From assembly GCA_029288835.1 (NCBI GenBank), contig JARIGN010000004.1:22313-86312 (forward strand): 64,000 nucleotides of DNA, written 5' to 3'. The notes beneath the pieces were generated by a model. The model did no database searches and had not been told where the DNA came from. It was given only the letters and a program-made list of their open reading frames with translations. Of this stretch, positions 2 through 43,576 are shown piece after piece. The translations under genes and the position numbers were made by a program. The stretch's first letter is position 1. Each line of letters begins with the position of its first letter. This DNA is from Candidatus Kaiserbacteria bacterium (GTDB lineage Bacteria > Patescibacteriota > Minisyncoccia > Phycocordibacterales > Phycocordibacteraceae).

Positions 2-2752
2 GTAGGTTCTTTTGAAAATAGAAGTGCACTAAATACCGTTGCACCCGCACCCATCTCTTCGCCGGAAGAAGAGCTTGCCTATTTACGCGCGCAAGTCGAA
101 GCAAAAGAAGCAGAGCTTCGCGAACTAAAGCAGGAGCAGCCGCAGGCACTCGTAGCGCATGAGCGCCTTTTGCATCATCGCGAAGAGGGTCATGCCGTCA
201 TGGCGCCTGAGTATAGGATTTCTCCCACTGAGGCGCAGGAGCTCGCACTCGAGCTCGATCCAGAGCAGGACGACGAGACCATGGAAGAACTGCGGAATAT
301 CATGGAAGAAAAGGGTATTCGCAATGCCTATGCCGTGCTCGACCACCTCAATAGCCCGCACCTTGAGGACGACTTCCACCGTTTTCTCGTGCAGTACATC
401 CTGGCAGGCATGCAGCCAAACGGGATGCGCGACAGCCAGCCCGAGTGGAAGTCACTTCACTTTACACTCTATGAAATAGCTTTGCCTGAAAAGGAACAAA
501 CTGAAGAGGGGAAGCAAAAGGTGCTTAAGGAGCTCATCTCCTCCATGGAGCAGTTTTATGCGAGCATGCTTTCCGTTGCGGAAGCCTATGCGGGCGAGCC
601 GCCATACTTTTCACTCGAGCTCGCAGTGCCTGTGGACCGTTCAGCACTCTTTTTCTATGCTGCCGTGCCAAATGGCCGTCGCGATCTTTTTGAAAAATCA
701 ATCCTTTCCATTTTTCCACACGCGCACCTCACGCCTCAGCCTAATGACTACAATGCCTTTGTGCCAGAAGGCTTTTCTATAGGAACCACGGCGAAGCTTG
801 CACATAAGCAGATGCTGCCGCTGAAGGACTATACGGAGTTTGACTATGATCCCTTAAATTCCATTCTCAACGCGTTTGCAAAAATCGGTGCAGAAGATGA
901 AGGCGCAGCGCTGCAGATAATATTTCAGCCAAAGGGTGACCGCTACATTCGCCACTATAGAAAAGTGCTTGAAGCACTGCGTCGCGGGGAAGATACGTAT
1001 AAGGCGCTCAATACTCCAGAATCCTTTGCGGGAGAACTCGTAAAAGAGACCGGAGCGATTTTCGTAAAGCCAAAAGAGCTTGACCGTTCCCATGCCGACC
1101 AAACGGTCATCGAGCTCGTCGAAAAGAAAATGGCGTCGCCTATTATTGCGACGAACATTCGCATGGTGGTGTCTTCGCGCAGTGAAGTGCGTGCTACGCA
1201 AATCCTCAATGACCTGGAATCTTCCTTCAACCAGTTTGAAAATACACGAGGGAATAGGCTGCAGTTTAAGCGTTTTCATAAGCGCCAGGCAAAAGACCTT
1301 TTCCATGACTTCACGTACCGTCTTTTTGCCCCCAGCGCTGAAATGCCGCTAAACCTTCGCGAGCTCACGACCATCTACCACTTCCCACCGAAGGGTATCG
1401 AATCATCACCAAACCTCAAGCAGGGCAGATACACCACTGCGGCTGCGCCGCTAGATCTTCCTCGCGAGGGTCTTTATATCGGCTCCAACTTCTTCCGTGG
1501 GACGGAAACGCATGTGACCCTTGCGCCGCAGGACCGTCTTCGTCACCTATATGTAATAGGACAGACCGGTACGGGTAAGTCGGTATTCTTGAAGAATCTC
1601 TGTATTCAGGACATTCAAGCGGGTGAAGGCACGTGCTTTATTGATCCCCACGGCAACGATATCATCGATATTCTTGCCGCCGTGCCGCCGGAGCGCTATG
1701 AAGACGTGATTTATTTTGACCCTGCGTATCTCGACCGCCCGTTCGGGCTCAACCTCCTTGAGTATGACCAGCGCATGCCTGAGCAAAAGACGTTTATTGT
1801 GAATGAAATCCTTGCTATCTTCCGCAGGCTCTATGGCGACGTGCCGGAAAGTATGGGCCCGATGTTTGAACAGTACTTCCGAAACTCAACGCTTCTCGTC
1901 ATGGAAGATCCGGCGAGCGGCTCGACACTGCTCGATATTGCGCGCGTACTTTCGAACAAAGCCTTCCGCGATATGAAACTTTCTCGCTGCTTTAACCCGG
2001 TCGTGAGCCAGTTCTGGAATGAGATCGCAACGCAAGCAGGTGGGGAGGCGTCGCTTGAAAATATCGTGCCGTATATCACCAACAAGTTTGACGACTTCTC
2101 CGCGAACGATTTCATGCGCCCTATCGTCGGCCAGCAAAACTCTTCCTTTAACTTCCGCGAGGTAATGGATAACAAAAAAATCTTGCTGGTGAATCTTTCG
2201 AAGGGAAGGCTCGGCGAGCGTAATGCAAACCTCATTGGTTTGATTTTGGTAGGGAAGATCTTTATGGCTGCACTTTCTCGTGCCGACTCCGTCGGCACGA
2301 ATTTCCCGCCGTTCTATCTGTACATCGACGAGTTCCAAAACATCACCACCGACTCCATTCCTGCCATTCTTTCAGAAGCCCGTAAATACAAGCTATCTTT
2401 GACGGTGGCGCACCAGTTCCTGGCACAGATCGACGAGAAGATTCGTGATGCGGTGTTTGGAAACGTCGGCTCCATGAGCGTGTTCCGTGTGGGGCAGGAA
2501 GATGGAGAATTCTTTGCAAAGCAGTTTGCCCCAACTATCAACGCGCTCGATTTCGTCAATATCGAAAACTATAATGCGTACATAAAAATGCTCGCGGGTG
2601 GTGTGCCACAAAAGCCATTCAATATTAAGACGCCGGCGCCAATTCAGGGTAACCCGAACCAGGTCGACGACCTCCGCGAGCTTTCCTACCTAACCTATGG
2701 CCGCGACCGCCTCACGGTGGAGACCGCTATCCGCAACCGGTACCTATCCTAA
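2..2752 (+). CDS. Type IV secretion/conjugation coupling-protein-like P-loop ATPase (TraD/VirD4/TraG family); frame open to window edge, so probably 5'-partial (first in-frame starts TTG 170, ATG 200)
   Basis: No stop codon in this frame from nt 2 to TAA at 2750. Walker A is YVIGQTGTGKS and Walker B is FYLYIDEFQN. The C-terminal ARKYKLSLTVAHQFLAQ...GNVGSMSVFRVGQEDGEFFAKQF matches the TraG/TraD C-terminal signature. The N-terminal ~400 aa is a soluble coiled-coil-rich domain with no visible TM helix. Confidence 0.6.
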   Translation, partial: VGSFENRSALNTVAPAPISSPEEELAYLRAQVEAKEAELRELKQEQPQALVAHERLLHHREEGHAVMAPEYRISPTEAQELALELDPEQDDETMEELRNIMEEKGIRNAYAVLDHLNSPHLEDDFHRFLVQYILAGMQPNGMRDSQPEWKSLHFTLYEIALPEKEQTEEGKQKVLKELISSMEQFYASMLSVAEAYAGEPPYFSLELAVPVDRSALFFYAAVPNGRRDLFEKSILSIFPHAHLTPQPNDYNAFVPEGFSIGTTAKLAHKQMLPLKDYTEFDYDPLNSILNAFAKIGAEDEGAALQIIFQPKGDRYIRHYRKVLEALRRGEDTYKALNTPESFAGELVKETGAIFVKPKELDRSHADQTVIELVEKKMASPIIATNIRMVVSSRSEVRATQILNDLESSFNQFENTRGNRLQFKRFHKRQAKDLFHDFTYRLFAPSAEMPLNLRELTTIYHFPPKGIESSPNLKQGRYTTAAAPLDLPREGLYIGSNFFRGTETHVTLAPQDRLRHLYVIGQTGTGKSVFLKNLCIQDIQAGEGTCFIDPHGNDIIDILAAVPPERYEDVIYFDPAYLDRPFGLNLLEYDQRMPEQKTFIVNEILAIFRRLYGDVPESMGPMFEQYFRNSTLLVMEDPASGSTLLDIARVLSNKAFRDMKLSRCFNPVVSQFWNEIATQAGGEASLENIVPYITNKFDDFSANDFMRPIVGQQNSSFNFREVMDNKKILLVNLSKGRLGERNANLIGLILVGKIFMAALSRADSVGTNFPPFYLYIDEFQNITTDSIPAILSEARKYKLSLTVAHQFLAQIDEKIRDAVFGNVGSMSVFRVGQEDGEFFAKQFAPTINALDFVNIENYNAYIKMLAGGVPQKPFNIKTPAPIQGNPNQVDDLRELSYLTYGRDRLTVETAIRNRYLS

Positions 2753-2779
2753 CGTGACAGCTCAGCTTATACTTTAGAT

Positions 2780-5419
2780 ATGCCAACAGGTGAAAAACTA
2801 CCAAAAATTACAGCTAATGAAAAAGGCGTAACTGTTTCCGGTCACAAAGAGGGTGTGACTGTAAATAATAATTACAAAACTGAGATTCATATCCACGGAT
2901 CAGCTCCTGAATCTCATCCGACCACAACTGTAACTGAGCCGCAAAGAATTGTTTTTTTCTCAACGCAGCGAAAAAGATTAGAAAAGATAGAAAAGCACCG
3001 CGCAAGAATGCAGGAAGCAGTTAAGGCGCTGCGAGAAAAAGAAGGAAAACAAGATAACAAAGAGTCTCCCAACGTCGAGTCCCCTAAAGCTGAAACTGCC
3101 GGCGCTGCAGCTACTCAGACTCCTAATGCAGCACCTAAAACAGAAAGTGCTCCAGAGAAGACCACTGAAAAGCTAAAGCCGCTTCGCGACAAAGGAATAG
3201 AAGAGGTAATGGAGAAGATGAAGGCTCGAAATGTGGCTGAAGCTTCTGCCTCAACGCCAAAGCCAGCAGCAGAGAAAAAACCGGATGCCTTTACTCCTGA
3301 TGAAAATAGGCTACTTAGGCTCGCCCTTGCTTCGAGAGGACCAGAAGCAATGAGGGAACTTCAAAAGCAGCTGCAATTGGATAAAGGGGAAAAGATTGAT
3401 GGAAAGTTAGGAAAAAGAACAAACCAAGAGCGCAGAGCGAAAGCAATGGAGCAGGCTGAAAAAATGCTTACTGCGGAAGGAGCATACTTTGTAGCACTCA
3501 AAGAATTTCACAGAACAAAAGGCTTCCATAGTGTCATTGGCGACAAATTTAACCCAGACGGTAGAATGCTTCCGCCAAATGTGCAGGCTTTAAAAGATGC
3601 ATGGATTGCTTCTCGCTCCTCATATGCGGAGTTTATGCGTAACAGTGCCGAAGATAGCCATCGAAAAAGGCATGAGAGGTATACCGGAAAGACTGCAGAG
3701 CTCCTCACCGACCGTGTAATGGAGCGGTACCAACGGCGCTTCATGGTTAAGGAAGTGGTCTTAGGTGCAGAAAAGGCAGAGCAAAGGGCACGTCTTGAGG
3801 GGCTTTCAACGCGTGACAAAAAAGGAATTGAAAAGTTTTTTGATAAGTACCAAAAGGGAATTAGTAAAGGCCTTCGGATATTTGGTACAGGTGCGATGAT
3901 AACGATGGGCATGGCTGCGGGAATTAGCGGATCTCCAATCGTTGGAATTGGAGCACTTCTATTCGGGGGCGCATCTGCTTTTAGTCTCTATAAAGCAGCA
4001 AAGGCAAAAGATGGTTCGGAAGAAAAGAAAAAATGGGAAAGAAGAGCACAGCTCACTAGCTTTGCAGGTATATTTGGCTGGGTTGGAGACAAGCTCATTC
4101 GCGGTGGTCATTCTTTAAACAAAACAGTTGATAAAGCTCATCAAACTCTTGAAAAGAGAGAGGGTCTCGGCGACCTTACCAGCGTGCAAAACATGAAGAA
4201 TATTGCCCATGAAAGGAAGCGAGCAACACAGGCAGAGGAAGTGGTTGAAGCAGATGCACGCATGGGAAGACTCGCAGGGTCGCTAATAGGAGGTGCGGCA
4301 GTAGGGGGTGCTCTGCATGGCCACCTTGGTCTTGGAGGAGGCTTTGAGCACCATAAGACAGTAAGTGAACTTTCTATTGGAGAGCACGCTGGGGGTCACA
4401 CCATTTATGACGGAGAAAGGCTTCTCGGACATTTTGCGAATAAGCTTCACAACCATCACTTCCCGGGAGGACATGTCCCAAAGTCAGTGCAAGCTTTTGA
4501 AAAGCTCCTTCACGTGAAAGGGCACAAAGGTTTTGCATGGAGCGCGGGGGAAAATAGAGCTTCAAAACTCCTGGGGTTTGAGGGTCCTAATGGAAGCGTT
4601 GTGATGCAGCCACACGACAGTCTAAAGCTCCTTGATAATGGAGACATTATTCTCCATAGGCCGGGACATCCGGAAATGGATACCCTTATTATGGATTCAC
4701 AAGGAAATCCTCACCAGATAGATACCTTTGTATGGCACCAGGCGCCCGTAGGGCATCATGCGCCTGGTTCTCCTACTCACGAAATGCATGAAGGCCATGA
4801 TATGAGTGCTGCCGCTTCAAATGACACCTCCCATGACCATGATGATGTTGCATTAAATAATGAGCAGCACCAAAAAGACCTTGCTGAAGACGCTGCGCGC
4901 CACTACACTCAGCCACCGACATCAACTCACATACCAGTACAGTCTACTGTTTCCCAACCAGAAAATGCGGCAAGCACCCAACAAGCATACGAAAACTTCA
5001 AACATAATTTCGCTGAACTAAAAGCCGAGCACCAAGCTGAGCGCGCTGCAGAGCATACTGCTCCACCGCATAGTGAAGTAATGTCTGCCGTTGCGGCACA
5101 TCAGCCTCCTCATGCACCTGACCTAGGCCCTATTGTGCAGCCACCACCGCATATTATTCAAGGGTCGGAGCATGCCGTAGCTACTGATAATGGGCATATT
5201 GAAGCAGAGTCTGCTGCTACTTTTCACGCGGAGCCTGGATCAGTGGCAGCATGGAATCAGGCGCGCGTGGCACCTGCAGGAACAGAAGTCCCGTATATAA
5301 GTCATGTTGATCCTAGTGGACCCCACTGGAATTCATGGGTTTCGGACGGAAAGGGACAAGTCCATGAAATATTGGGAGTTGACTCAGCTAATGGGAAACA
5401 CCTCCCTCCAGCAGCGTAG
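2780..5419 (+). CDS. Large hypothetical membrane protein (879 aa): Lys/Glu-rich N-terminal region, central TM helices, His-rich C-terminal region
   Basis: Long ORF. Hydrophobic stretch GLRIFGTGAMITMGMAAGISGSPIVGIGALLFGGASAFSLY. Repeated His clusters (HGHLGLGGGFEHH, HNHHFPGGH, HEMHEGHDM, SHDHDD). No recognisable catalytic motif. Lower GC than the core genes. Confidence 0.55.
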   Translation: MPTGEKLPKITANEKGVTVSGHKEGVTVNNNYKTEIHIHGSAPESHPTTTVTEPQRIVFFSTQRKRLEKIEKHRARMQEAVKALREKEGKQDNKESPNVESPKAETAGAAATQTPNAAPKTESAPEKTTEKLKPLRDKGIEEVMEKMKARNVAEASASTPKPAAEKKPDAFTPDENRLLRLALASRGPEAMRELQKQLQLDKGEKIDGKLGKRTNQERRAKAMEQAEKMLTAEGAYFVALKEFHRTKGFHSVIGDKFNPDGRMLPPNVQALKDAWIASRSSYAEFMRNSAEDSHRKRHERYTGKTAELLTDRVMERYQRRFMVKEVVLGAEKAEQRARLEGLSTRDKKGIEKFFDKYQKGISKGLRIFGTGAMITMGMAAGISGSPIVGIGALLFGGASAFSLYKAAKAKDGSEEKKKWERRAQLTSFAGIFGWVGDKLIRGGHSLNKTVDKAHQTLEKREGLGDLTSVQNMKNIAHERKRATQAEEVVEADARMGRLAGSLIGGAAVGGALHGHLGLGGGFEHHKTVSELSIGEHAGGHTIYDGERLLGHFANKLHNHHFPGGHVPKSVQAFEKLLHVKGHKGFAWSAGENRASKLLGFEGPNGSVVMQPHDSLKLLDNGDIILHRPGHPEMDTLIMDSQGNPHQIDTFVWHQAPVGHHAPGSPTHEMHEGHDMSAAASNDTSHDHDDVALNNEQHQKDLAEDAARHYTQPPTSTHIPVQSTVSQPENAASTQQAYENFKHNFAELKAEHQAERAAEHTAPPHSEVMSAVAAHQPPHAPDLGPIVQPPPHIIQGSEHAVATDNGHIEAESAATFHAEPGSVAAWNQARVAPAGTEVPYISHVDPSGPHWNSWVSDGKGQVHEILGVDSANGKHLPPAA

Positions 5420-7083: not shown

Positions 7084-7112
7084 TTGACAATATAGGAATT
7101 ATAGATTATAGT
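7084..7112 (+). promoter_or_regulatory. Consensus sigma70-like promoter (TTGACA-17 nt-TATAGT) for the gene at 7162
   Basis: Exact TTGACA at 7084-7089. 17-nt spacer. TATAGT at 7107-7112. Lies in the divergent intergenic region. Confidence 0.5.
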
Positions 7113-7161
7113 GTTTCAAGATCAAACGCTCTAACCAGAGCTACATCGAGGGACTACCACC

Positions 7162-7485
7162 ATGATGAACGTTCTCAAGATCACGCTTTTCGGAGCAGCC
7201 GCGCTGTCGCTCGTCGCATGCAATTCGCATGGGTACGATCAAACAGACACATATACCCAGACTGTCCACCATCACGGGGACTGCTGGGGAGGGGAGTGCA
7301 GTCGGCTGCGCGCCAGCGAGGCGCAACCTTCGGAATTCCAGGATCCCACAATCCAGAATTCGAACGACGTCTCCGTGTATGTTGACGGGGATGGCGGCTC
7401 CAGTCGTCCTCATCGCCGTCACGTGCGTGTCGCCCACGCGAACTCGTCCTCTCATCAGAAGGTTTGTAAGCCCGACGATGACTGA
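7162..7485 (+). CDS. Small His/Cys-rich hypothetical lipoprotein (107 aa)
   Basis: Signal peptide with lipobox LVAC. HHHGDCWGGECS and PHRRHVRVAH motifs. Slightly higher GC than neighbours. Confidence 0.5.
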   Translation: MMNVLKITLFGAAALSLVACNSHGYDQTDTYTQTVHHHGDCWGGECSRLRASEAQPSEFQDPTIQNSNDVSVYVDGDGGSSRPHRRHVRVAHANSSSHQKVCKPDDD

Positions 7486-7573
7486 CGATGACGTGGCCTC
7501 GACCAGCCCACCCAATTCTTCACAGATGCGGGTGGGCTTTCACTTTATATACTTTTACGATATCAATAAGTAG

Positions 7574-9517: not shown

Positions 9518-11623
9518 ATGGCAGGTTTCAAGATCCATACGCCGTTCCCTCCAGCAGGGGACCAGCCAAAAGCAATCGAGCAGCTCTCGAAGGGCGTTCG
9601 CGATGGCTTGCGGTACCAAACGCTGCTGGGCGCAACGGGCACGGGAAAGACCTACAGCATTGCAAACGTCATTAATGAGATTCAAAAGCCGACGCTCGTG
9701 ATGGCGCATAACAAGACTCTTGCGGCACAGCTTGCCCAAGAGTATTCAGAATTCTTTCCGGAGAATGCCGTGCACTATTTTGTTTCATACTACGACTACT
9801 ACCAGCCGGAAGCGTACATCGCACACTCCGACACCTACATTGAAAAAGAAGCACAGATTAATGCGGAAATAGACCGCCTGCGCCACGCTGCCACGCAGGC
9901 ACTTCTGACGCGCCAGGACGTCATCATCGTGGCTTCGGTCTCTGCTATCTATGGTCTTGGTTCTCCGGCAAATTATGAAAAAGTGCATATAAAAATTGCG
10001 AAGGGTGCAGAGGAGAATCGCGCCGCGCTCATCCGCAAGCTCGTGGGTATTTATTTCGAGCGCACCACTGCAGACCTCATGCCGGGGCATATTCGCGCGG
10101 TGGGAAATGTGGTGGAGTTTATGCCCGTGAACGAGCGTGCTATCTACCGCGTCTCTTTTACGGAAGGGGAAGCGGGTACGGTTGTTTCAGCTATCGAGCA
10201 GCTCGATCCTATTTCTCGTGCCAAAATCTCGGACCATGACTCAGTATTTGTGTTCCCGGCAAAGCACTTCGTCTCCGATGAAGCTGAGCGAACTCGTGCG
10301 CTCGCCGATATTCAGCTCGAGCTTGAAGAACGCCTTGCGCAGCTTAAGCGCGAAGAAAAGCTTCTCGAGGCAGAGCGCCTCAAGCGTCGCACGCAGCACG
10401 ACATTGCCATGATTCGCGAGATTGGCTACACCAACGGTATTGAAAACTATTCGCGTCATTTTGACGGCCGTGCACCGGGTGAGGCACCCTATACCTTGCT
10501 TTCGTATTTTCCGCACAAAAAAGATGGCACGCCCGACTTCCTCACGGTGCTCGATGAGTCCCATGTAACGGTCTCGCAAATCGGCGGCATGTATGCGGGT
10601 GACCGCTCACGCAAGGACACGCTCATAGAGTTTGGGTTCCGCCTACCTTCAGCCCGAGACAACCGCCCCCTTAAGTTTGAGGAGTTTGAGCAGCGCGTAG
10701 GCCAGCTTATCTTTACGAGTGCTACGCCTGGCGCCTATGAGAAAGAAAAAAGTGTGCCGCCGGAAGGAAAGGTGGTGGAGCAGATCATTCGCCCAACCGG
10801 TCTTATTGACCCAGAGCTTATCCTTAAGCCTATTGTCGGAAGTGAAGCTTCCGTTGATGATAAAGGAAAGGAAGTACCCGCATACCCAGGGCAAATCGCA
10901 GACTTTATCGAGGAGGCCGCTACCGTCATCAAGCGTGGCGGCCGTGCACTCGCCACCACCCTCACCAAGCAAATGGCTGAGGACCTCGCCACCTTTTTGC
11001 GCGAGCGCGGCATTAAGGCGGAATATCTCCACAGCGACGTGAAGACCATTGATCGCATCACTATTCTCACGGAGTTCCGTAAAGGCACGTTTGATATTTT
11101 GGTTGGAGTGAACCTTCTACGTGAAGGTCTTGACCTTCCGGAAGTGGAGCTCGTGGGAATCCTCGATGCAGACAAGGAAGGCTTCCTACGATCGGAAACA
11201 TCACTTATCCAGACTATTGGCCGCGCTGCACGAAACATTCTCGGGCGCGTCATCCTCTATGCTGATGTCATGACTGGCTCGATGGAGCGTGCTATCAACG
11301 AAACAAATCGTCGTCGTGCCATCCAACTTGCCTATAACAAGGAGCACAACATCACGCCTATGACGATCAAGAAGGAAATTCGCGACATTTCCGAGTCAAT
11401 GCGCAGCGAGCATGATAAGACCATTGATTCGCTTCTCACCCTTGACCAAAAGATGTATGAGGAAGACCCTGAGGCATTTATTGCGGATAAGCGTCGCCAG
11501 ATGGAGGAAGCGGTGGAGCTGCTTGATTTTGAGACGGCGGCGCTTATCCGCGATGAAATCCTTAAGCTCGAAGGAAAAGAAATCCCCGCGAAGTCAAAAA
11601 GCCGCCGTGGACGCAAACGCTAG
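9518..11623 (+). CDS. uvrB: Excinuclease ABC subunit B
   Basis: LLGATGTGKT Walker A. Helicase motifs. C-terminal UVR domain DFETAALIRDEILKLEG. Confidence 0.95.
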   Translation: MAGFKIHTPFPPAGDQPKAIEQLSKGVRDGLRYQTLLGATGTGKTYSIANVINEIQKPTLVMAHNKTLAAQLAQEYSEFFPENAVHYFVSYYDYYQPEAYIAHSDTYIEKEAQINAEIDRLRHAATQALLTRQDVIIVASVSAIYGLGSPANYEKVHIKIAKGAEENRAALIRKLVGIYFERTTADLMPGHIRAVGNVVEFMPVNERAIYRVSFTEGEAGTVVSAIEQLDPISRAKISDHDSVFVFPAKHFVSDEAERTRALADIQLELEERLAQLKREEKLLEAERLKRRTQHDIAMIREIGYTNGIENYSRHFDGRAPGEAPYTLLSYFPHKKDGTPDFLTVLDESHVTVSQIGGMYAGDRSRKDTLIEFGFRLPSARDNRPLKFEEFEQRVGQLIFTSATPGAYEKEKSVPPEGKVVEQIIRPTGLIDPELILKPIVGSEASVDDKGKEVPAYPGQIADFIEEAATVIKRGGRALATTLTKQMAEDLATFLRERGIKAEYLHSDVKTIDRITILTEFRKGTFDILVGVNLLREGLDLPEVELVGILDADKEGFLRSETSLIQTIGRAARNILGRVILYADVMTGSMERAINETNRRRAIQLAYNKEHNITPMTIKKEIRDISESMRSEHDKTIDSLLTLDQKMYEEDPEAFIADKRRQMEEAVELLDFETAALIRDEILKLEGKEIPAKSKSRRGRKR

Positions 11624-11641
11624 GGAGTATACTACATACTA

Positions 11642-12754
11642 ATGAGCCTCGGACTGATTCTCGCCGTTCTTATGCTCGTCATACTGGCGGGCTCTGCTGG
11701 CCTTTTGTATTACACCTCCGTCTTTATTCAGTCCCATCTTGCTCTCTTCATTCCTGATACGAGCAGTGCAGAATATGCGGCTATCCACCAACTTTTCATC
11801 CAACAAATTGCCCTCGTAGGCATAGGAGAGATACTTATTGTCCTTCTTGCCTTTATTTTGATTGGGTCACTTGTCGTGAGCCCACTCCGTCAGCTCGCGA
11901 AAGCTATTGCCAATTTTACTGAAGACTTTACCGTTGCACTCCCGCCGTTCTCGGGTATGGTGCCGAGCGAAGTACATTCTATTGCTGCCGCATTCCAAAC
12001 TTTCTCTGCACGCGTATCTGAAGCGCATCAAAAAGATCAAGAGATATCTCGCGTAAAATCAGACTTTATTTCAACCGTGGCGCACCAGCTCCGCACACCC
12101 CTCACGGGAATTCGCTGGGCACTTGAAGCCCTCGAAAAGGAGCCAATCACTCCTGAGCAGCTTCAGATTGTGGAAAGCGCGGTAACCAAAAGCCACGATT
12201 TAGTCGCGATTGTGGGGACCTTGCTTGATATCTCAAGCATCGAGTCAGGTAAGTTTAAATATGCATTTGTCCAATTTGACCTAAGCGAGCTCGTATCCGA
12301 GGTAGCAAAAGATTTGGAACCTATGGCCCAGAAAGCAGGTATCACTTTTTATTATGCAAAAGAAGAGGCACCGCTTCCCCTCGTGTATGGAGACCGAGAC
12401 AGGCTGAAGTGGGTGCTCAATAACCTCGTTGAGAATGCTATCCGATATACGCCGTCACCGGGAAGTGTGCATATAAGCACAGACGCAACAGCGTTACGCG
12501 TAAATGTGCGTGTGCGTGACACGGGTATAGGGATCCAGGAAGAAGACAAGGGTAATATTTTTGAACGTTTTTATCGGGGAGAAAATGCTCGCGCAAAGGA
12601 AAACCAGGGAAATGGCTTGGGGCTTTATATTGCGCGCACAATAGCTAAAGACCATGGGGGAGATCTTAATTTCATGGCAAATGAAGAAGGACCTGGCACA
12701 ACCTTTGTCCTTTCGCTTCCTGTGGCTAGTGAAGTTGCAGGGCAGGGAATGTAG
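11642..12754 (+). CDS. Sensor histidine kinase (2 TM, HisKA + HATPase_c)
   Basis: H-box SDFISTVAHQLRTPLTGI. N/G boxes NLVENAIRYT and DTGIGI. Confidence 0.8.
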   Translation: MSLGLILAVLMLVILAGSAGLLYYTSVFIQSHLALFIPDTSSAEYAAIHQLFIQQIALVGIGEILIVLLAFILIGSLVVSPLRQLAKAIANFTEDFTVALPPFSGMVPSEVHSIAAAFQTFSARVSEAHQKDQEISRVKSDFISTVAHQLRTPLTGIRWALEALEKEPITPEQLQIVESAVTKSHDLVAIVGTLLDISSIESGKFKYAFVQFDLSELVSEVAKDLEPMAQKAGITFYYAKEEAPLPLVYGDRDRLKWVLNNLVENAIRYTPSPGSVHISTDATALRVNVRVRDTGIGIQEEDKGNIFERFYRGENARAKENQGNGLGLYIARTIAKDHGGDLNFMANEEGPGTTFVLSLPVASEVAGQGM

Positions 12755-12766
12755 TATACTTGAGCT

Positions 12767-13204
12767 ATGAACAACGACTTTATCCTGATTGTGGAAGACG
12801 ACCCTGTGTTGCGGAATTTGCTCGGTAGAACCCTCGGAACTACGTATCCCGTCTTTTATGCATCAGATGGCCAGGAAGCTCTTGATTTCTTTGAACAGCA
12901 TAAGCCTTCACTCGTGCTTCTTGATCTTATGCTTCCTACCGTAGACGGGTTTGCCGTGCTCCAAAACATTCGCAGCCGTACTGATGAAACAAAAAATGTT
13001 CCGGTCATTATTGTCTCCAACCTTGGCCAGGAGAAAGATAAGGAGCGTGCAATTTCCCTTGGAGCAAACGAGTATCTTGTAAAGGCTGAAGTATCAATCG
13101 AAGACATCATTGCAAAGATGCAGGAAAAGCTAAAGGCACATGCGGGCGTCGCATCAGCACCTGAAGCAGACATAACACCTACTGCAGAGCCTGAAGCTTC
13201 ATAA
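12767..13204 (+). CDS. Response regulator, receiver domain only (CheY-like)
   Basis: ILIVEDD...LLDLMLPTVDGF...KA receiver motifs. No output domain. Confidence 0.8.
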   Translation: MNNDFILIVEDDPVLRNLLGRTLGTTYPVFYASDGQEALDFFEQHKPSLVLLDLMLPTVDGFAVLQNIRSRTDETKNVPVIIVSNLGQEKDKERAISLGANEYLVKAEVSIEDIIAKMQEKLKAHAGVASAPEADITPTAEPEAS

Positions 13205-13297
13205 GAATGAAGTGGCAGCCTATGCTGCTTACTGATATACTACTTTAGTACCTGTCCCGCCACGGACAGGCATTCCGCTATCTAAGACCATCGAGTC

Positions 13298-16069
13298 ATG
13301 GCTAAAGAAAAAGAATCTGCAAAAAATAAGCATGAGCAGCACCAAGGCGCGAGTTGGATCGGCGTTAAGGGGGCACGTACCCATAATTTAAAAAACATTA
13401 GCGTCGACATTCCGCGCGGCGTTATGACCGTGCTCACCGGCCTTTCTGGCTCAGGAAAGTCCTCGCTCGCGTTTGACACTATTTTCGCTGAAGGACAGCG
13501 CCGCTATGTGGAGTCTCTTTCTGCCTATGCCCGCCAGTTCTTGAACCAGATGCAGAAGCCTGACGTGGACGAGATTACCGGGCTTTCCCCTGCTATTTCC
13601 ATAGACCAAAAAAGCCGCTCCAATAACCCGCGCTCGACCGTAGCGACCGTCACTGAAATATACGACTACCTGCGCGTGCTCTATGCCCGTGCTGGCCAGC
13701 CATACTGCGTGAACCATGACGTGCCAATTTCCAAGCTTTCAAAGGAAGAAATGATCAATATTATTTGGAGAAAAGTCTCTGAAAAGACTGGAGAAGCAAA
13801 CGCGAAGGATGTGGCTGCCAAAGAGCAGGCAGAAGCGTCAGGTACCAAGACTAAAGTGATGGGCGTGGAGTTTGACCGTAGTACCGTGACTATTCTGGCT
13901 CCCGTTGTGGTCGGCCGTAAAGGCGAATACTATCAGCTCCTCTACGACCTCCTCGGGAAAGGCTTTGAAAAGGTTATGGTAGACGGGAAGACGCAGTCAT
14001 TGCGCGAGAAAATCGTGCTCGATAGAAACAAGCGGCACGATATTGATGCCGTGGTAGATACTATTTTTGTTACGGAATTTGTGCGCAGCCCAGACGCAGC
14101 GCGGGAGCGCCTTTCTGAAGCGCTCGAGCTCGCACTCAAGGAAAGCGACGGCCTTGTGAAGATCATCCATGCCGATGGTTCACCAGAAACACTATCTGCA
14201 AAGTTTATTTGTCCCGAAGACGGCATGTCCTTCCCCGAGGTGGAGCCGCGCCTTTTCTCCTTCAATAGCCCGTACGGCGCCTGCCCAAGCTGTAACGGCC
14301 TCGGAACAAAGTCTTTCTTTTCTGATGAGCCATGCCCGGTGTGTCATGGGCTTCGCCTCCGTGAAGAAGCGCTTCGTGTGTATTTGAAGGGCAAAAGCTC
14401 TGGGAAAGTGGCAAAGAAAGTGGCGAAAAGCGATAAGAAAGACGAGGACAAAAACTATGACCATAATGGTCTTGGAAAAAATATTGTGGATTTCACCGGG
14501 CTTTCTATTAAAGAAGCGAAAGAATTTATAAACGAGCTCGACCTCAGCGATTTCCGCATGGAAATCGCTGCACCGATGATTCGCGAAATCGAAAGCCGCC
14601 TCGATTTCATGCTTAATGTCGGCCTCGACTATCTGAGCCTTAACCGCTCGGCAGCAACGCTCTCAGGAGGAGAGTCACAACGCATCCGCCTTGCGTCACA
14701 GCTTGGCACCGGGCTTGTGGGTGCGCTCTATGTGCTCGACGAGCCAACTATCGGCCTCCACCAGCGTGACAATGATCGCCTCATCCAAACGCTCCTTACA
14801 CTCAAGGAGCTTGGGAACACGATTCTCGTTGTCGAACACGATGAAGACACCATCTATTCTTCAGACTATATAGTGGATATTGGACCAGGTGCAGGCGTAC
14901 ATGGAGGAAGTGTGGTCGCGAGTGGATGGCTTGATGACTTGCTCACCGCGCCAAAAAATGAAAGTGGCTCCGTGACCCTTTCGTACCTGCGTGGTGAAAA
15001 AGAAATTCCGATTCCTGAGGAGCGTCGCACAGGTGAAAAGGGCAGCATCAAGATCCGCGGAGCAACACTGCACAACCTGCACAACCAAAACATTGACGTG
15101 CCGCTTGGAAAGCTCGTGTGTATCACGGGTGTGTCAGGCTCTGGAAAGTCTACCTTCCTGTATGACATCCTGCACAAAAACGTAGCAGCACGCATGAGCA
15201 AGCGTGAGTCGGAGGTAGTGAATTGTGCCTCTATGACCGGCACCGAGTACATTGGCCGTGTCATCCTTATGGACCAGTCTGCTATCGGTCGTACCCCGCG
15301 CTCAAACCCTGCCACGTACACCGGTGCCTTCACGCACATTCGAGACCTGCTCGCTGCCACCAGTGAAGCTCGTGCGCGTGGCTGGAAGCCTGGACGCTTC
15401 TCCTTCAATGTGCCCGGCGGACGCTGCGAAGCGTGCCAAGGAAACGGCGTTATAGCGGTGGAGATGCATTTCCTCCCGACCGTCTACGTAACTTGCGACG
15501 TCTGTAACGGTACGCGCTTCATGAAAGAAACGCTTGAGGCAACGTATCGCGGAAAAAATATCTATGAAATTCTTCAAATGACCATTGAAGAAGCAGAGGT
15601 ATTCTTTAAGGAAATTCCTGCCATCAATGAGCGTCTCGAGACACTAAACGCAACCGGTCTCCAGTACCTCACTCTCGGCCAAAGTGCGACGACTCTTTCT
15701 GGAGGTGAAGCGCAGCGCGTAAAGATCGCTTCTGAGCTGTATCGTCCCACCACGATGAAGACGCTGTACCTTCTCGACGAGCCAACCGTCGGTCTTCACT
15801 ACGAAGATGTGCGAAAGCTCATTGAGATCTTGCAAGAGCTCGTCCGCCGTGGGAATACGGTGGTGGTGATCGAGCACAACCTTGATGTGATTAAGTGCGC
15901 GGACTATCTCATCGACTTTGGTCCTGAAGGCGGCGTGCACGGCGGAAAAGTTATTGCAAAAGGAACTCCCGAAGAGGTTGCAGAAACGGAGGGCTCCTTT
16001 ACCGGCGAGTATCTCTCAAAAGTATTTAAGAAAGCAAAACAGTCGAAGCAGTCAAAAGCGAAAAAGTAG
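13298..16069 (+). CDS. uvrA: Excinuclease ABC subunit A
   Basis: Two ABC ATPase modules (GLSGSGKSS and GVSGSGKST; LSGGE signature twice). Zn fingers CPSCNGLG...CPVCHG and CEACQGNG...CDVCNG. Confidence 0.95.
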
Positions 16070-16108
16070 GGCGAAAGGCAGTAGCGAGTGTAGAGTAATG
16101 CCTAAAAG

Positions 16109-16136
16109 AAAACAGCTCCGTCTCCGAAGCTGTTTT
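16109..16136 (+). terminator. Hairpin downstream of uvrA (aaaacagct...agctgtttt)
   Basis: ~10-bp stem. The T-run is partly inside the stem. Confidence 0.4.
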
Positions 16137-16158
16137 CCCGTCATCGCATTGGGTTTAC

Positions 16159-16280
16159 CATGACCACCCTGAGTACCTTTATGATACTCCCGGTAAAATT
16201 CATGTCAACTAGCCAAAGTATAACTACTGGCGCTGGCGTGAGGCACGACCCCCAATGACTTACTTCTCAGGGTGGTCATG
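16159..16280. repeat. Perfect 15-bp inverted repeat (catgaccaccctgag / ctcagggtggtcatg) flanking a 92-nt spacer in the uvrA-uvrC intergenic region
   Basis: Seen directly at 16159-16173 and 16266-16280. No ORF lies between them. Confidence 0.6.
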
Positions 16281-16425
16281 CGGTCATTCCGCCGCCAGCA
16301 GTACAAGCCTATCAAGTAGCGATGAGATAAAAGTAAAAAATATATCAAATAACGCTGAGTTTTTGACAAAATCATATTAGTAATGAGTATTCAACTTCGT
16401 ATTATAATAAAATATAGCTTTATTC

Positions 16426-17796
16426 ATGCAGAAAACTGATTTAGCAAAATTTGATTTGCCTGACTGCCCGGGCGTGTACCTTTTCACCCATGGCAAAGGT
16501 AAAAGTAAGAAAGTCCTGTATGTAGGGAAGGCTACTTCCTTGCGTGACCGTGTGCGTTCGTACTTTGATGATGACCTTATAGCCACGCGTGGCCCACGCC
16601 TTGTGGATATGGTGACGCGCGCCGATGGCATTATGCATGAGACGACACCGACAGTACTTGAAGCGCTTGTACGTGAAGCTGCGCTCATCCGCTACTACAA
16701 CCCACCGGCGAATTCCATGGGCAAGGATGATAAGTCATTTCTGTATGCCGTTATCACTGATGAGCAGATACCGCGGATTCTCGCTATTCGTGGCACGGAG
16801 ATAGACTTCGAGAAAAAGCTGACGACAAGCGCATACGTCCAATCTGCCTCAAGCAAAGTACTTAAACTCAAAGCTATCTATGGGCCGTTTCCTTCCGGAT
16901 ACCAGCTGCGCGAAGGTCTTCGCCTTATTCGCCGCATCTTTCCGTTTTATGACACCAACAGGTCCATTGAGGAGATTGCGACCGGTCGCAATAAGCATGT
17001 GCAGGCAAATGTGGAGTTCAAGCGCCAGATAGGATTGTATCCGCGGAATATGGATCGCAAAGAATATCTACGATCTATTCGTAATGTTGGCCTCTTTCTT
17101 TCCGGGCGCATCAAAACACTTCGCACCACTCTCACTGCTGAAATGAAGCAAGCTGCTAAAGAGGAGCGCTTCGAAGATGCAGGGGAGATTCGTCGGCAGC
17201 TTTTTGCCCTCGACCATATTCAGGACGTGTCGCTCATTAAGGAAGACTGGAACAAAGGAAAGGAAGCGCCACGAATTGAAGCCTATGACACCGCGCACCT
17301 CGCCGGCAGCAATGCTATTGGCGTGATGACCGTGGTGGAGAATGGCATGCCACTCAAGAAGGAATACCGCACTTTCCGTATTCGCGGGTATATGCAGAAA
17401 GAACCTAAAAAAAAGGTTGATGCAACCAAGGCAGGCGAGTCCGCTAAGAAAACAGGCAAGGAGGTGAAGAGGATGAACGACGACATTGCTTCCCTTAAGG
17501 AAATCCTTTCCCGTAGGCTTGGGCATCCAGAGTGGCCAATGCCACGTGCCATCATTGTAGATGGTGGCAAGACGCACAAGAAGGCCGCTGAGACGGTGCT
17601 TGCTGAGCTTGGGATCGGTATACCAGTCGTGGCCGTGGTGAAGGATGAAAAGCATCGGCCGCGGGAAGTGATCGGCTCGCTTCGTGCGGGAATCAGTGAT
17701 GCTGATGCCGTCCTTGCAAATTCCGAAGCCCACCGCTTTTCCATAACCCTTCATCGTAAGGCACGTTCACGCTCTATGCGGTCTTCAGTCACATAA
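16426..17796 (+). CDS. uvrC: Excinuclease ABC subunit C, short form lacking the C-terminal (HhH)2 domain
   Basis: GIY-YIG (GVYLFTHGKGKSKKVLYVGKATSLRDRVRSYF). UVR motif. RNase-H-like endonuclease region EAYDTAHLAGSNAIGVMTVV. Only 456 aa. Confidence 0.85.
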   Translation: MQKTDLAKFDLPDCPGVYLFTHGKGKSKKVLYVGKATSLRDRVRSYFDDDLIATRGPRLVDMVTRADGIMHETTPTVLEALVREAALIRYYNPPANSMGKDDKSFLYAVITDEQIPRILAIRGTEIDFEKKLTTSAYVQSASSKVLKLKAIYGPFPSGYQLREGLRLIRRIFPFYDTNRSIEEIATGRNKHVQANVEFKRQIGLYPRNMDRKEYLRSIRNVGLFLSGRIKTLRTTLTAEMKQAAKEERFEDAGEIRRQLFALDHIQDVSLIKEDWNKGKEAPRIEAYDTAHLAGSNAIGVMTVVENGMPLKKEYRTFRIRGYMQKEPKKKVDATKAGESAKKTGKEVKRMNDDIASLKEILSRRLGHPEWPMPRAIIVDGGKTHKKAAETVLAELGIGIPVVAVVKDEKHRPREVIGSLRAGISDADAVLANSEAHRFSITLHRKARSRSMRSSVT

Positions 17797-17814
17797 GTCT
17801 GGTATACTTGAAGC

Positions 17815-18819
17815 ATGTACGGCACCGTTGTCGGCGTTCTTCGAGGAGGTACTTCAGGCGAGCATGATATCTCGCTTAAGAGCGGGCATGCTGTGGTGGC
17901 AAATCTTCCGCGCGATAAGTACACGGTTAAGGATATCTATATAGACAAGGAAGGGAGTTGGCATGAGCGCGGCAAGCCTTCTACTCCTGCGGATATTTTG
18001 CGCTCGGTTGATGTGGTCCTCAGCACGCTCCATGGCGCCTATGGTGAAAGCGGCGAGCTCCAGCGCATGCTTGAGCAGTTTTCCGTGCCGTATGTCGGTG
18101 CTGACCCACTCAATTCCTATTTTGCGCTTCACAAAGTCCTCTCAAAGGAGAAAGCACGGGAGGTTGGCATCAAAACGCCCAAGTATATGTGGGTGCAGAT
18201 GGGTTCCGATGTAGGGAAGATTTCCTATGACATTATTCGTAACCTGCAGCAGCCGGTCGTGTTAAAGCCCGTCACCGGCGGCTCATCGCTTGGCATTAGT
18301 ATGGCGGGCGGTTATGCGCAGGTACACACCGCTCTTGCAAAGCTTTTGGAAGAAAGTGATGTGCTCGTTGAGGAACGAGTATGGGGTACTGAAGCGACGG
18401 TCGGTGTTGTGGAGAATTTTCGGGACGAAAAGCTTTATGCGCTACCTCCTATAGAAATTATTCCACCGCAAGGCGATTTCTTTTCGTATGAGGCGAAATA
18501 TACCGGCAAAAGCATTGAGCGTGTGCCCGGATATTTTTCTAAAGAAATACAGGAAGAGCTGGTGCACGCAGCCCGACGCATGCATGAAGCGCTTGGGCAG
18601 CGGCATTATTCTCGCTCAGACTTTATTGTGACCAAAAAGGGCATTTATTTCCTCGAGCTTAATAGCGCCGTAGCATGCGGTCTCACCAAGGAATCACTTT
18701 TCCCGAAAGCGCTTGCGTCGGTCGGCGTGCAGTTTCCTGATTTTCTTTCGCACATCATTGACCGCGCGATGATAAAAAGCAAGCCGCTTTTTAGCCATAG
18801 TGAATGGCAGATTGCGTAA
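17815..18819 (+). CDS. ddl: D-alanine--D-alanine ligase
   Basis: ATP-grasp motifs. VLSTLHGAYGESGELQRMLE. FLELNSAVACGLTKESL. Confidence 0.85.
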   Translation: MYGTVVGVLRGGTSGEHDISLKSGHAVVANLPRDKYTVKDIYIDKEGSWHERGKPSTPADILRSVDVVLSTLHGAYGESGELQRMLEQFSVPYVGADPLNSYFALHKVLSKEKAREVGIKTPKYMWVQMGSDVGKISYDIIRNLQQPVVLKPVTGGSSLGISMAGGYAQVHTALAKLLEESDVLVEERVWGTEATVGVVENFRDEKLYALPPIEIIPPQGDFFSYEAKYTGKSIERVPGYFSKEIQEELVHAARRMHEALGQRHYSRSDFIVTKKGIYFLELNSAVACGLTKESLFPKALASVGVQFPDFLSHIIDRAMIKSKPLFSHSEWQIA

Positions 18820-29251: not shown

Positions 29252-31014
<1,763 letters not shown>

Positions 31015-32793: not shown

Positions 32794-32859
32794 GGCTAAA
32801 GCCTTCTTTTATACCCACCACCGGTTTTACATCTACACAACGTTATATATACTAAAGCA

Positions 32860-34375: not shown

Positions 34376-34588
34376 ATGGCAGAAACACAGACGGAGCCGG
34401 TAATCGGCAGAGTGGAAGAAGTCCTTCCGAATAGCCTCTTTAGAGTGCGTCTTCCGTCTGATGAGCTCGTGCTTGCGTACCTCGCCGGTAAGATGCGATT
34501 GCATCGCATTCGTGTGTTGGTGGGTGACCAGGTAGAGCTCGTTCTCGATCCATACGGCGGCAGGGCACGAGTCGTCAAAAGACTCTAG
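34376..34588 (+). CDS. infA: Translation initiation factor IF-1
   Basis: S1-like. VIGRVEEVLPNSLFRVRLPSDELVLAYLAGKMR. Confidence 0.9.
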   Translation: MAETQTEPVIGRVEEVLPNSLFRVRLPSDELVLAYLAGKMRLHRIRVLVGDQVELVLDPYGGRARVVKRL

Positions 34589-34627
34589 TCAGCAAAATTT
34601 TGCAAACTTATTAATTTATTGATTACG

Positions 34628-34744
34628 ATGAAAGTACGCGCTTCAATCAAAAAGCAGCAACCAGGAGACATTCTCGTCCGCCGCCGCGGCCGTCTTTATC
34701 GTATTAATAAGATTAACCCGCGCCGCAAGGCTCGCCAGGGCTAA
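34628..34744 (+). CDS. rpmJ: Ribosomal protein L36, zinc-independent (C-minus) form (38 aa)
   Basis: Hand-translated [44 protein letters not shown]...RQG framing is present but the Cys/His ligands are absent. Too short for the ORF track. Confidence 0.7.
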
Positions 34745-34765
34745 CATTTCCGTAATCTATTCACT

Positions 34766-39893: not shown

Positions 39894-39910
39894 AGAAATA
39901 AACTTGAAAA

Positions 39911-40825: not shown

Positions 40826-40847
40826 TATTTCCACTAACTACTCACCT

Positions 40848-41411: not shown

Positions 41412-41533
41412 AGATCGCTGATTTGAACTTATAAATCAGCAGGTGTAAAATGGGAGTATGAGCGTGCAATAGCACGCAGGCATAGCAGCACGGCATATTG
41501 CTGCATTTATTAATTTCATAAGCATATTTCACT

Positions 41534-43492: not shown

Positions 43493-43576
43493 GGGTAGTC
43501 TCTTCGCAACTTCAGGCATACAGCTCGCTACAACACGGGCTTGACATTACGTCCATGAAGGTGTAATACTAAACCT

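What the first reader, a model, noticed from the sequence alone, without database searches (positions are those of the whole stretch)
16141..16300. Perfect 15-bp inverted repeat around a 92-nt spacer in the uvrA-uvrC intergenic region: possible structured ncRNA or MITE-like element
The 350-nt gap between uvrA and uvrC contains catgaccaccctgag and, 92 nt later, its exact reverse complement. No ORF lies between them. A separate uvrA terminator hairpin lies just upstream.

A 15-bp perfect stem enclosing about 90 nt is larger than a terminator. It fits a cis-regulatory RNA, a small ncRNA, or a miniature inverted-repeat element.

I looked for RNase P, tmRNA and SRP conserved boxes in the spacer and did not see them.
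Basis: seen in the sequence. Interest (0 to 1): 0.5.

Follow-up and report, generated by a model that had tools for sequence, protein, structure and literature searches.

The report
Inverted repeat bracketing an orphan promoter
The perfect 15-bp inverted repeat between uvrA and uvrC is real, but it most likely does not close a structured RNA; it brackets a strong backward-facing promoter that probably makes a ~70-nt small RNA (or could be a flip-switch), an untested feature seen in this one uncultured bacterium only.

Summary
The arms are at 16159-16173 and 16266-16280, 15 bp perfect, with a 92-nt spacer, in the 356-nt uvrA-uvrC gap of a Patescibacteria (Paceibacteria-like) genome. It is the only long-spacer repeat of this kind in 64 kb (about 0.025 expected by chance).

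- No Rfam or tRNA match.
- The 92-nt interior folds no better than shuffled sequence.
- No second copy in the window, in metagenome, viral, phage or plasmid collections.
- No conservation in about 85 related uvrA-uvrC loci. That junction is a turnover hot spot carrying unrelated small genes.

What is there instead:
- The spacer holds one of the two best sigma-70 matches in the window (TTGACA-16-TATCAT, minus strand). Such matches mark real gene starts in this genome.
- The predicted start (~16174) is the inner edge of the left arm.
- About 36 nt later lies the hairpin at 16137-16108, with its best U-run on the minus strand.
- No ORF fits between start and terminator.

Best reading (0.4): a ~70-nt minus-strand sRNA whose free 5' end is the arm sequence. 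Main rival (0.22): an invertible promoter currently facing away from uvrC; no recombinase lies in the 64 kb. All function is inferred. Interest is modest.

The parts
16159..16173 (.). Left arm of the perfect inverted repeat (CATGACCACCCTGAG on +). On the minus strand it reads CTCAGGGTGGTCATG, the first 15 nt of the predicted small RNA.
   Evidence: I1; I7
16266..16280 (.). Right arm of the perfect inverted repeat (CTCAGGGTGGTCATG on +).
   Evidence: (I1)
16174..16265 (.). 92-nt spacer. On its own it has no significant fold on either strand. It contains the promoter and a degenerate third arm-like copy at 16246-16257 (CACGACCCCCAA) that can pair locally with the right arm.
   Evidence: sequence
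16181..16208 (-). Sigma-70-type promoter on the minus strand: -35 TTGACA (16208-16203), 16-nt spacer, -10 TATCAT (16186-16181), 11 of 12 matches. Predicted start is about 16174, at the inner edge of the left arm.
   Evidence: only 2 sites at 11/12 or better in 64 kb against 0.27 expected; most other strong sites sit just upstream of real gene starts.
16100..16174 (-). Predicted ~70-75-nt non-coding transcript: unpaired 5' end (the arm sequence), about 20 nt of linker, a 15-bp terminator hairpin and a U-tail. No ORF longer than 8 codons.
   Evidence: MFE -31.4 kcal/mol, z = -5.05, 5' end mostly unpaired; sequence. Inferred, with no expression data.
16108..16137 (.). Hairpin shared with the uvrA 3' end and usable in both directions. 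The U-run is UUUUCUUUU on the minus strand but only UUUU followed by CCC on the plus strand.
   Evidence: (I6), sequence. The tool's own terminator scan did not call it.
16281..16425 (+). Right flank of the repeat up to uvrC. It is AT-rich from about 16320 (25-29% GC) and holds a weak leaderless-type uvrC promoter candidate, TTCAAC-17-TATAGC, 7 nt before the ATG (7 of 12 matches, by inspection).
   Evidence: (composition), sequence; inference
16205..16375 (-). 56-aa ORF overlapping the right arm. Probably not a gene: it has no homologue, no family match, and was not called in the source record.

Best explanation
The two arms are not the closing stem of a structured RNA. They bracket a working promoter that fires on the minus strand, away from uvrC and toward the 3' end of uvrA. 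Transcription starts at about 16174, at the inner edge of the left arm. It runs 36 nt and stops at the hairpin 16137-16108 with its U-run, giving a non-coding RNA of about 70-75 nt.

The first 15 nt of that RNA are the arm sequence (CUCAGGGUGGUCAUG). They are predicted to be mostly single-stranded, as in seed-type regulatory sRNAs.

The inverted repeat then means that this free 5' end can pair with two kinds of RNA. It has a perfect 15-nt partner 92 nt upstream on any longer minus-strand RNA. It is also fully antisense to any uvrA read-through transcript heading for uvrC, where it would compete with the intramolecular 15-bp stem.

Shown directly: the repeat, the promoter-like and terminator-like sequences, their geometry, and the lack of an ORF, of an interior fold, of copies and of conservation. 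Inferred: that the promoter fires, the transcript ends, and any regulatory role. The unit may equally be a leftover of one of the small accessory genes that turn over at this junction.
For: - Promoter: TTGACA-16-TATCAT on the minus strand at 16208-16181. It is one of only two sites at 11/12 or better in 64 kb, against 0.27 expected.
- The consensus is predictive in this genome. Of the 13 other sites at 10/12 or better, 8 end within about 32 nt of a same-strand gene or tRNA start, against about 3% expected. Several have leaderless spacing of 6-9 nt.
- The other 11/12 site drives a lipoprotein gene with its own terminator.
- The downstream 78 nt fold into a free 5' end plus a 15-bp hairpin and U-tail, z = -5.05.
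- The U-run is longer on the minus strand than on the uvrA strand, although no minus-strand protein gene needs a terminator there.
- The longest ORF after the predicted start is 8 codons (sequence).
- The predicted start coincides with the arm edge, which this model explains and the others do not.
- The interior has no fold of its own. In longer minus-strand RNA the arms go into separate local hairpins rather than pairing with each other.
Against: - There are no expression data.
- There is no homologue of the unit in any relative, so conservation and covariation cannot be tested.
- The tool's terminator scan did not call the hairpin, because the U-run partly pairs with the upstream A-run.
- No convincing target was found. 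The best duplex in the window outside the locus (174-213, -38.6 kcal/mol) is not clearly separated from other GC-rich chance hits at -35.5 and -34.8.
- A minus-strand transcript carrying the right arm would need a promoter in 16281-16425. Only a -10 element (TATAAT, 16406-16401) is seen there, without a -35.
- A perfect inverted repeat flanking a promoter is also the defining layout of an inverton.
Confidence: 0.4

Rival explanations
1. Invertible promoter (inverton) caught in the OFF orientation. A site-specific recombinase encoded elsewhere in the genome would flip the 92-nt segment between the arms. The promoter would then start at about 16265 on the plus strand and read through the right arm and a ~160-nt leader into uvrC. 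In the sequenced orientation its transcript is stopped harmlessly at the bidirectional terminator.
For: - Perfect inverted repeats flanking a near-consensus promoter directly upstream of a gene is the defining architecture.
- The 122-bp size is compatible. Over 75% of called invertons are under 300 bases (PMC11602134), and a 57-bp inversion is documented (10.1101/2023.03.11.532203).
- No terminator-like site lies between the right arm and uvrC.
- uvrC's own promoter candidate is weak, 7 of 12 matches by inspection.
Against: - No recombinase, invertase or transposase was found among the roughly 45 largest ORFs of the 64-kb window, including all immediate neighbours.
- No contig with the opposite orientation exists in metagenome or viral collections, though this organism is essentially absent from them.
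- Reported invertons are concentrated in Proteobacteria, Actinobacteria, Firmicutes and Bacteroidetes, and many repeat-flanked promoters do not invert.
- The coincidence of the predicted start with the arm edge is unexplained by this model.
- Relatives have no comparable repeat-plus-promoter unit. None of the 17 long perfect repeats in 676 kb of related loci holds a promoter site at 10/12 or better.
Confidence: 0.22
2. Neutral leftover. The uvrA-uvrC junction is a hot spot where small accessory genes come and go. The promoter and terminator would be the remains of a deleted minus-strand gene, and the inverted repeat a recent by-product of the rearrangement, with no function of its own.
For: - Gap length among 75 related loci ranges from -23 to 2357 nt, with at least 6 unrelated ORF families on either strand.
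- L086 has exactly the layout uvrA, bidirectional terminator, minus-strand 92-aa gene, uvrC.
- The nearest relatives have gaps of 55 nt and 127 nt without this element.
- The element is an orphan everywhere it was searched for.
Against: - A perfect 15-bp repeat (0.025 expected per 64 kb) and an 11/12 promoter both being intact argues for recent origin or for selection.
- No remnant of any known gap ORF is detectable in the window's gap.
Confidence: 0.18
3. Miniature inverted-repeat transposable element (or a solo remnant of one) of about 122 bp, with an outward-facing promoter, inserted between uvrA and uvrC.
For: - Terminal inverted repeats, small size and no coding capacity.
- It sits in an insertion-prone junction.
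- The closest relative has a short gap without it.
Against: - No second copy, even with 3 mismatches or by sensitive local alignment, in 64 kb.
- No match to the arm pair in metagenome or viral contigs, and no similarity to phages or plasmids.
- No target-site duplication (sequence).
- No transposase in the window.
- The whole 356-nt gap, not just the 122 bp, is unrelated to the gaps of relatives.
Confidence: 0.08
4. Plus-strand structured or cis-regulatory RNA. The 15-bp stem would close a ~90-nt domain in the uvrA 3' UTR or the uvrC leader.
For: - The whole element folds better than shuffles: z = -3.2 to -4.1 on the plus strand.
- In relatives, long perfect stems often do bracket real RNAs, namely tRNAs and a LOOT RNA.
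Against: - The score comes from the stem alone. The interior gives z = -1.2.
- No Rfam family matches even at E <= 10, and nothing tRNA-like is found.
- There is no plus-strand promoter upstream other than read-through of the uvrA terminator.
- The only strong promoter is inside the spacer on the other strand.
- There is no conservation.
Confidence: 0.05

Closest known systems
Seed-type bacterial small RNAs made from a free-standing promoter and intrinsic terminator (5'-end seed class such as RybB or OmrA/B; cited from general knowledge)
   Same: It has a strong sigma-70 promoter, a length of about 70 nt, an unpaired 5' end, a terminal GC-rich hairpin with a U-tail, no ORF, and an intergenic location convergent with a neighbouring gene.
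   Different: There is no conservation, no expression evidence and no identified target. The seed has a perfect 15-nt complement only 92 nt upstream on the same strand, which is not a usual arrangement. Patescibacteria sRNAs are essentially uncharacterised.
Invertons (invertible promoters: fimS, Bacteroides capsule switches; PhaseFinder and DeepInverton catalogues, PMC11602134)
   Same: A pair of inverted repeats flanks a short segment that carries a promoter, next to a gene it could switch. The size is within the reported range.
   Different: No invertase is nearby and the alternative orientation has not been seen. The phylum is not among those where invertons are reported to be concentrated. 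The would-be target is a DNA-repair gene rather than a surface structure.
Non-overlapping type I toxin-antitoxin pairs (tisB/istR-1, shoB/ohsC, zor/orz; cited from general knowledge)
   Same: A short RNA has a 15-20-nt perfect complement to a neighbouring transcript that carries a small ORF, and the locus lies among DNA-damage genes.
   Different: Here the two would be in tandem on the same strand rather than divergent. The 56-aa ORF has no clean transmembrane segment, no homologue and no convincing promoter. The complement lies at codons 31-36, not at the translation start.
MITEs such as Correia elements of Neisseria (cited from general knowledge)
   Same: A unit of about 100-150 bp with perfect terminal inverted repeats and an outward promoter, in an intergenic region.
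   Different: It is single-copy as far as can be seen, with no target-site duplication and no related sequence anywhere.
Giant hairpin terminator in the nearest relative (L081 3372-3476)
   Same: A long perfect inverted repeat in the same uvrA-uvrC gap.
   Different: L081's repeat is 26 bp and folds into a near-continuous ~40-bp hairpin followed by TTTTT (z = -8.8). The window's arms enclose 92 nt of unstructured sequence with a promoter, and no T-run follows them. The sequences are unrelated.

Membership tests
Rfam structured RNA / riboswitch-like element | Match to a curated covariance model | tested here: not met
   There is no hit over 16141-16300 at gathering score or at E <= 10 with relaxed filters.
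Rfam structured RNA / riboswitch-like element | Interior folds significantly better than shuffled sequence | tested here: not met
   The spacer alone gives z = -1.2 on the plus strand and +1.2 on the minus strand.
Rfam structured RNA / riboswitch-like element | Conservation or covariation in relatives | tested here: not met
   No similarity was found in about 85 related uvrA-uvrC loci. The nearest UvrC is only 76-88% identical.
tRNA / tRNA-like element in an extended stem (as seen in relatives) | Cloverleaf detectable by ARAGORN or the Rfam tRNA model | tested here: not met
   (relaxed settings, introns allowed) all found nothing.
MITE | Terminal inverted repeats on a short non-coding unit | tested here: met
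   The arms are 15 bp and perfect, and the unit is 122 bp.
MITE | Multiple dispersed copies | tested here: not met
   There are none in 64 kb and none in metagenome, viral, phage or plasmid collections. The rest of this genome was not available.
MITE | Target-site duplication flanking the repeats | tested here: not met
   The flanks GGGTTTAC and CGGTCATT share no direct repeat.
Inverton | Pair of inverted repeats flanking a short segment (mostly under 300 bp) | tested here: met
   One search gives the repeat. The size benchmark comes from PMC11602134.
Inverton | Promoter inside the invertible segment, next to a gene it can drive after flipping | tested here: met
   An 11/12 consensus site lies in the spacer. 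uvrC is 146 nt beyond the right arm with no terminator-like site between. This is sequence-level evidence only.
Inverton | Site-specific recombinase (invertase) available | tested here: inconclusive
   None was found among the ORFs of the 64-kb window. Most of the genome is unseen.
Inverton | Both orientations present in a population | not testable with these tools
Public contig scans found no second instance in either orientation.
Free-standing sRNA gene | Promoter, intrinsic terminator and no ORF | tested here: met
   Promoter. Hairpin plus U-run: and the sequence, although the tool's terminator scan did not call it. The longest ORF is 8 codons.
Free-standing sRNA gene | Detected transcript with defined ends | not testable with these tools
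   No transcriptome is available for this uncultured organism.
Type I toxin-antitoxin | Small hydrophobic toxin ORF with recognisable relatives or a clean transmembrane helix | tested here: not met
   The 56-aa ORF has no homologue or family match. Its hydrophobic stretch is interrupted by S, H and R.

The most novel reading that the evidence does not exclude
The 122-bp unit is a genuine invertible promoter in a Patescibacteria genome that switches uvrC, and so nucleotide excision repair, between a weakly and a strongly expressed state. That would be phase-variable DNA repair in an ultra-small episymbiont, with the OFF orientation producing a short terminated RNA.
Probability: 0.2. Interest if true: 0.7.

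Novelty: new member of a known kind. Interest (0 to 1): 0.3.

Why it matters
If the small RNA is real, it would be one of very few candidate regulatory RNAs defined in Patescibacteria. These organisms have minimal genomes and almost nothing is known of their regulation. The RNA sits between two excision-repair genes that are fused into an operon in many relatives.

If the unit instead flips, it would extend phase variation to this phylum and to a DNA-repair gene.

As it stands, this is a single-genome, sequence-only candidate with no conservation and no expression data. Its practical value is as a precise, cheap test: read mapping for inversion, and RNA ends at about 16174 and about 16100. A useful by-product is that sigma-70 consensus promoters, often with leaderless spacing, are predictive in this genome.

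Tried and rejected
- Rfam at gathering score over the whole window and at E <= 10 over 16000-16450 gave only chance hits on the terminator hairpin.
- ARAGORN at default and relaxed settings found nothing.
- blastn of the gap against 79 related loci found nothing.
- tblastn of all gap ORFs from relatives against the window gap, and tblastx of the window gap against all gaps, found nothing significant.
- A shared 13-mer with L087 (GCGATGAGATAAA, E = 0.011) and an 'ATGAC[C/T]ACCC' / 'MTT' start resemblance looked like a possible pseudogene trace. Translated comparison did not support it, so I rejected it as chance.
- I looked for closer relatives through the exact protein, the 90% cluster, the full-length UvrC and the UvrC N-terminus. 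Nothing is closer than 76-88%. The one cluster-mate of UvrA (P0122) is an N-terminal fragment that does not reach the gap.
- The arm-pair pattern with a 77-107-nt spacer gave 0 hits in metagenome and viral contigs. I did not use the second metagenome scan, because the protein search had already shown that no same-species sequence is present.
- Phage and plasmid blastn found nothing.
- Target search for the sRNA 5' region in the window: the best site (174-213) is not separable from the GC-rich background tail. The 13/14 match GGTCATGC[C/G]GTCAT has E = 17. I rejected both.
- The 56-aa ORF as a gene or type I toxin has no homologue, no family match, and an AT-rich first half unlike the genes here.
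- I considered a leader-peptide attenuator (6-8-codon ORF plus terminator) and rejected it, because no minus-strand gene follows the terminator.
- I considered integron attC sites, dif/Xer sites, LexA boxes and CRISPR-like repeats by inspection only. No matching motifs were seen.
- I considered a pair of operators for DNA looping (arm centres 107 bp apart, about 10 helical turns). This cannot be tested here, and the arms are not themselves palindromic.

Full report
**1. The observation**

The window carries CATGACCACCCTGAG at 16159-16173 and its exact reverse complement at 16266-16280, 92 nt apart. The pair lies in the 356-nt gap between a 923-aa UvrA (13298-16069) and a 456-aa UvrC (16426-17796), both confirmed by Pfam. 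The repeat ends sharply at 15 bp and has no flanking direct repeat.

In the whole 64 kb it is the only perfect inverted repeat of 12 nt or more with a 20-400-nt spacer. Simulated sequence of the same composition gives 0.025 such 15-mers per 64 kb.

**2. Organism and context**

UvrC relatives place the window in Patescibacteria (Parcubacteria/Paceibacteria MAGs). The neighbourhood reads uvrB, histidine kinase, response regulator, uvrA, [gap], uvrC, ddl. The closest relative has the same order.

The genome is compact and most intergenic gaps are under 100 nt. No recombinase, transposase or IS gene was found among the ORFs tested across the window.

**3.

- No Rfam family matches the element at gathering score or at E <= 10.
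- ARAGORN finds nothing, even with relaxed settings.
- The whole element folds better than shuffles (z about -3 to -4), but this comes from the stem. The 92-nt interior alone gives z = -1.2 on the plus strand and +1.2 on the minus strand.
- There is no second copy in the window, with up to 3 mismatches in the arm or by sensitive local alignment of the whole gap.
- The arm pair with a 77-107-nt spacer has no match in the metagenome or viral contig collections.
- The gap has no similarity to phage or plasmid records.

**4. Comparative evidence**

In 75 species-level relatives uvrA is followed by uvrC, but the gap ranges from -23 nt (overlap) to 2357 nt. The gaps hold at least six unrelated small ORF families on either strand, several of them membrane-like. 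None resembles the window's gap at the DNA or protein level.

Among 5.8 billion proteins, the window's UvrC is found only as itself. The next best match is 76% identical over the full length, and N-terminal fragments reach 81-88%. Where context is available for these nearest relatives, the gaps differ from one another:
- 55 nt.
- 127 nt, filled by an unrelated 26-bp perfect repeat that folds into a ~40-bp hairpin followed by TTTTT, a terminator-like structure.
- About 370 nt, with a 92-aa minus-strand gene.
- About 460 nt, with a plus-strand leaderless ORF.

The junction is therefore a turnover hot spot, and the window's content is an orphan. Covariation cannot be assessed.

In 676 kb of related loci, 17 other long perfect inverted repeats exist. 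Several bracket real RNAs, namely tRNAs with extended flanking stems and one LOOT RNA. None contains a promoter site at 10/12 or better.

**5. What the spacer contains**

The promoter scan finds TTGACA-16-TATCAT on the minus strand at 16208-16181. Only two sites in the window reach 11 of 12 matches, against 0.27 expected.

The consensus is predictive in this genome. Of the 13 other sites at 10/12 or better, eight end within about 32 nt of a same-strand gene or tRNA start, against about 3% expected from random placement. Several have the 6-9-nt spacing typical of leaderless mRNAs. The other 11/12 site precedes a 107-aa lipoprotein gene with its own terminator.

So the spacer site is very probably a working promoter. 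Its predicted start, about 16174, is the inner edge of the left arm. From there the minus strand reads CTCAGGGTGGTCATG (the arm), then 21 nt, then the hairpin 16137-16108, then TTTTCTTTT. On the uvrA strand the same hairpin is followed by only TTTT and then CCC.

The 78-nt stretch folds into a largely free 5' end plus a 15-bp hairpin and a U-tail, with z = -5.05. The longest ORF after the predicted start is 8 codons. The tool's own terminator scan did not list this hairpin, because its maximal stem absorbs part of the U-run. I therefore call it a terminator by inspection and folding.

**6. Interpretation**

The two arms would not lie on the same primary transcript, so the '15-bp stem enclosing 90 nt' is not the relevant structure. 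In a hypothetical longer minus-strand RNA, each arm goes into its own local hairpin. This is helped by a degenerate third arm-like copy at 16246-16257.

The reading that needs nothing unobserved is a free-standing ~70-nt small-RNA unit. Its 5' seed is the arm sequence. The repeat provides a perfect 15-nt partner nearby, and the RNA is also fully antisense to any uvrA read-through transcript.

I could not identify a credible target. The best other duplex in the window is not separable from the GC-rich background. The 56-aa ORF that contains the right arm has no homologue or family match.

The main rival is an inverton in the OFF orientation. The architecture and size fit, and flipping would aim the promoter at uvrC, whose own promoter candidate is weak. 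Against this:
- No invertase lies in the 64 kb.
- No alternative orientation is known.
- The phylum is not among those reported to be enriched for invertons.
- The literature notes that many repeat-flanked promoters do not invert.

A neutral remnant of a lost accessory gene, and a solo MITE, remain possible at lower probability.

**7. Verdict**

The repeat is real and non-random. The best-supported picture is a promoter bracketed by the repeat that produces a short terminated minus-strand RNA (confidence 0.4 for the sRNA unit as the explanation; 0.22 for the inverton). All function is inferred from one sequence.

This is a new, unvalidated member of a known kind. Interest is modest (0.3), rising to about 0.7 if inversion were demonstrated.

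Noticed in passing
L001-L079 around the uvrA stop / uvrC start (e.g. L068 4000-4024, L030 1644-4000): The uvrA-uvrC junction in Paceibacteria relatives is a gene-turnover hot spot. The gap ranges from a 23-nt overlap to 2357 nt and carries at least six unrelated small ORF families on either strand, several of them membrane-like.
   Followed up: partly
L081 3372-3476 (identical in L082-L084): A 26-bp perfect inverted repeat folds into a ~40-bp near-continuous hairpin followed by TTTTT (z = -8.8). It fills almost the whole 127-nt uvrA-uvrC gap and looks like an unusually long intrinsic terminator.
   Followed up: partly
L087 4656-4743, L078 2220-2303, L067 4270-4417: tRNA genes are embedded in long perfect flanking stems (14-16 bp, extending or enclosing the acceptor stem). 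This suggests unusual pre-tRNA structures in these genomes.
   Followed up: partly
L015 7527-7822, L029 6345-6548, L055 9057-9257, L052 6787-6847: Inverted (and in L015 and L029 also repeated) copies of the 3' end of tRNA-Ala lie just downstream of the tRNA-Ala gene. They may be scars of integration or rearrangement at this tRNA.
   Followed up: no
L042 8638-8761: There is an Rfam LOOT RNA (RF03000) hit at 53.3 bits, above its gathering score, in a relative. No counterpart was found in the window.
   Followed up: no
window 29603-29641, 32826-32860, 43541-43577, 39904-39941: Strong sigma-70-like promoters end 6-9 nt before the start codon, implying that leaderless mRNAs are common in this genome. 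At 39911 the true start is probably the ATG at 39939.
   Followed up: partly
window 7084-7485: An 11/12 promoter (7084-7112) drives a 107-aa lipoprotein gene on the plus strand (7162-7485, lipobox LVAC) that has its own terminator. A longest-ORF gene map wrongly picks the overlapping minus-strand ORF 7141-7515.
   Followed up: yes
window 40826-41533 and 34579-35012: Two other unusually long gene-free gaps (708 nt upstream of dnaK, and 434 nt). A 10/12 promoter-like site at 40798-40826 points into the first. Neither has an Rfam hit.
   Followed up: no
window 9518-18819: The excision-repair genes are clustered as uvrB, histidine kinase, response regulator, uvrA, uvrC, ddl. The kinase-regulator-uvrA-uvrC-ddl part of this order is also seen in the closest relative (L081), hinting at signal-controlled repair. 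UvrC is short (456 aa) and shows no helix-hairpin-helix domain hit.
   Followed up: no
window 170-5419: Two adjacent large proteins (860 and 879 aa) have no Pfam match at all.
   Followed up: no
L085 (GCA_040384425.1, contig JAWVGW010298370.1): A 105-aa UvrA N-terminal fragment in the same 90% cluster as the window's UvrA comes from a very fragmented NCBI assembly. A close relative of this organism may therefore be hidden there, but its uvrA-uvrC junction was not recoverable.
   Followed up: partly
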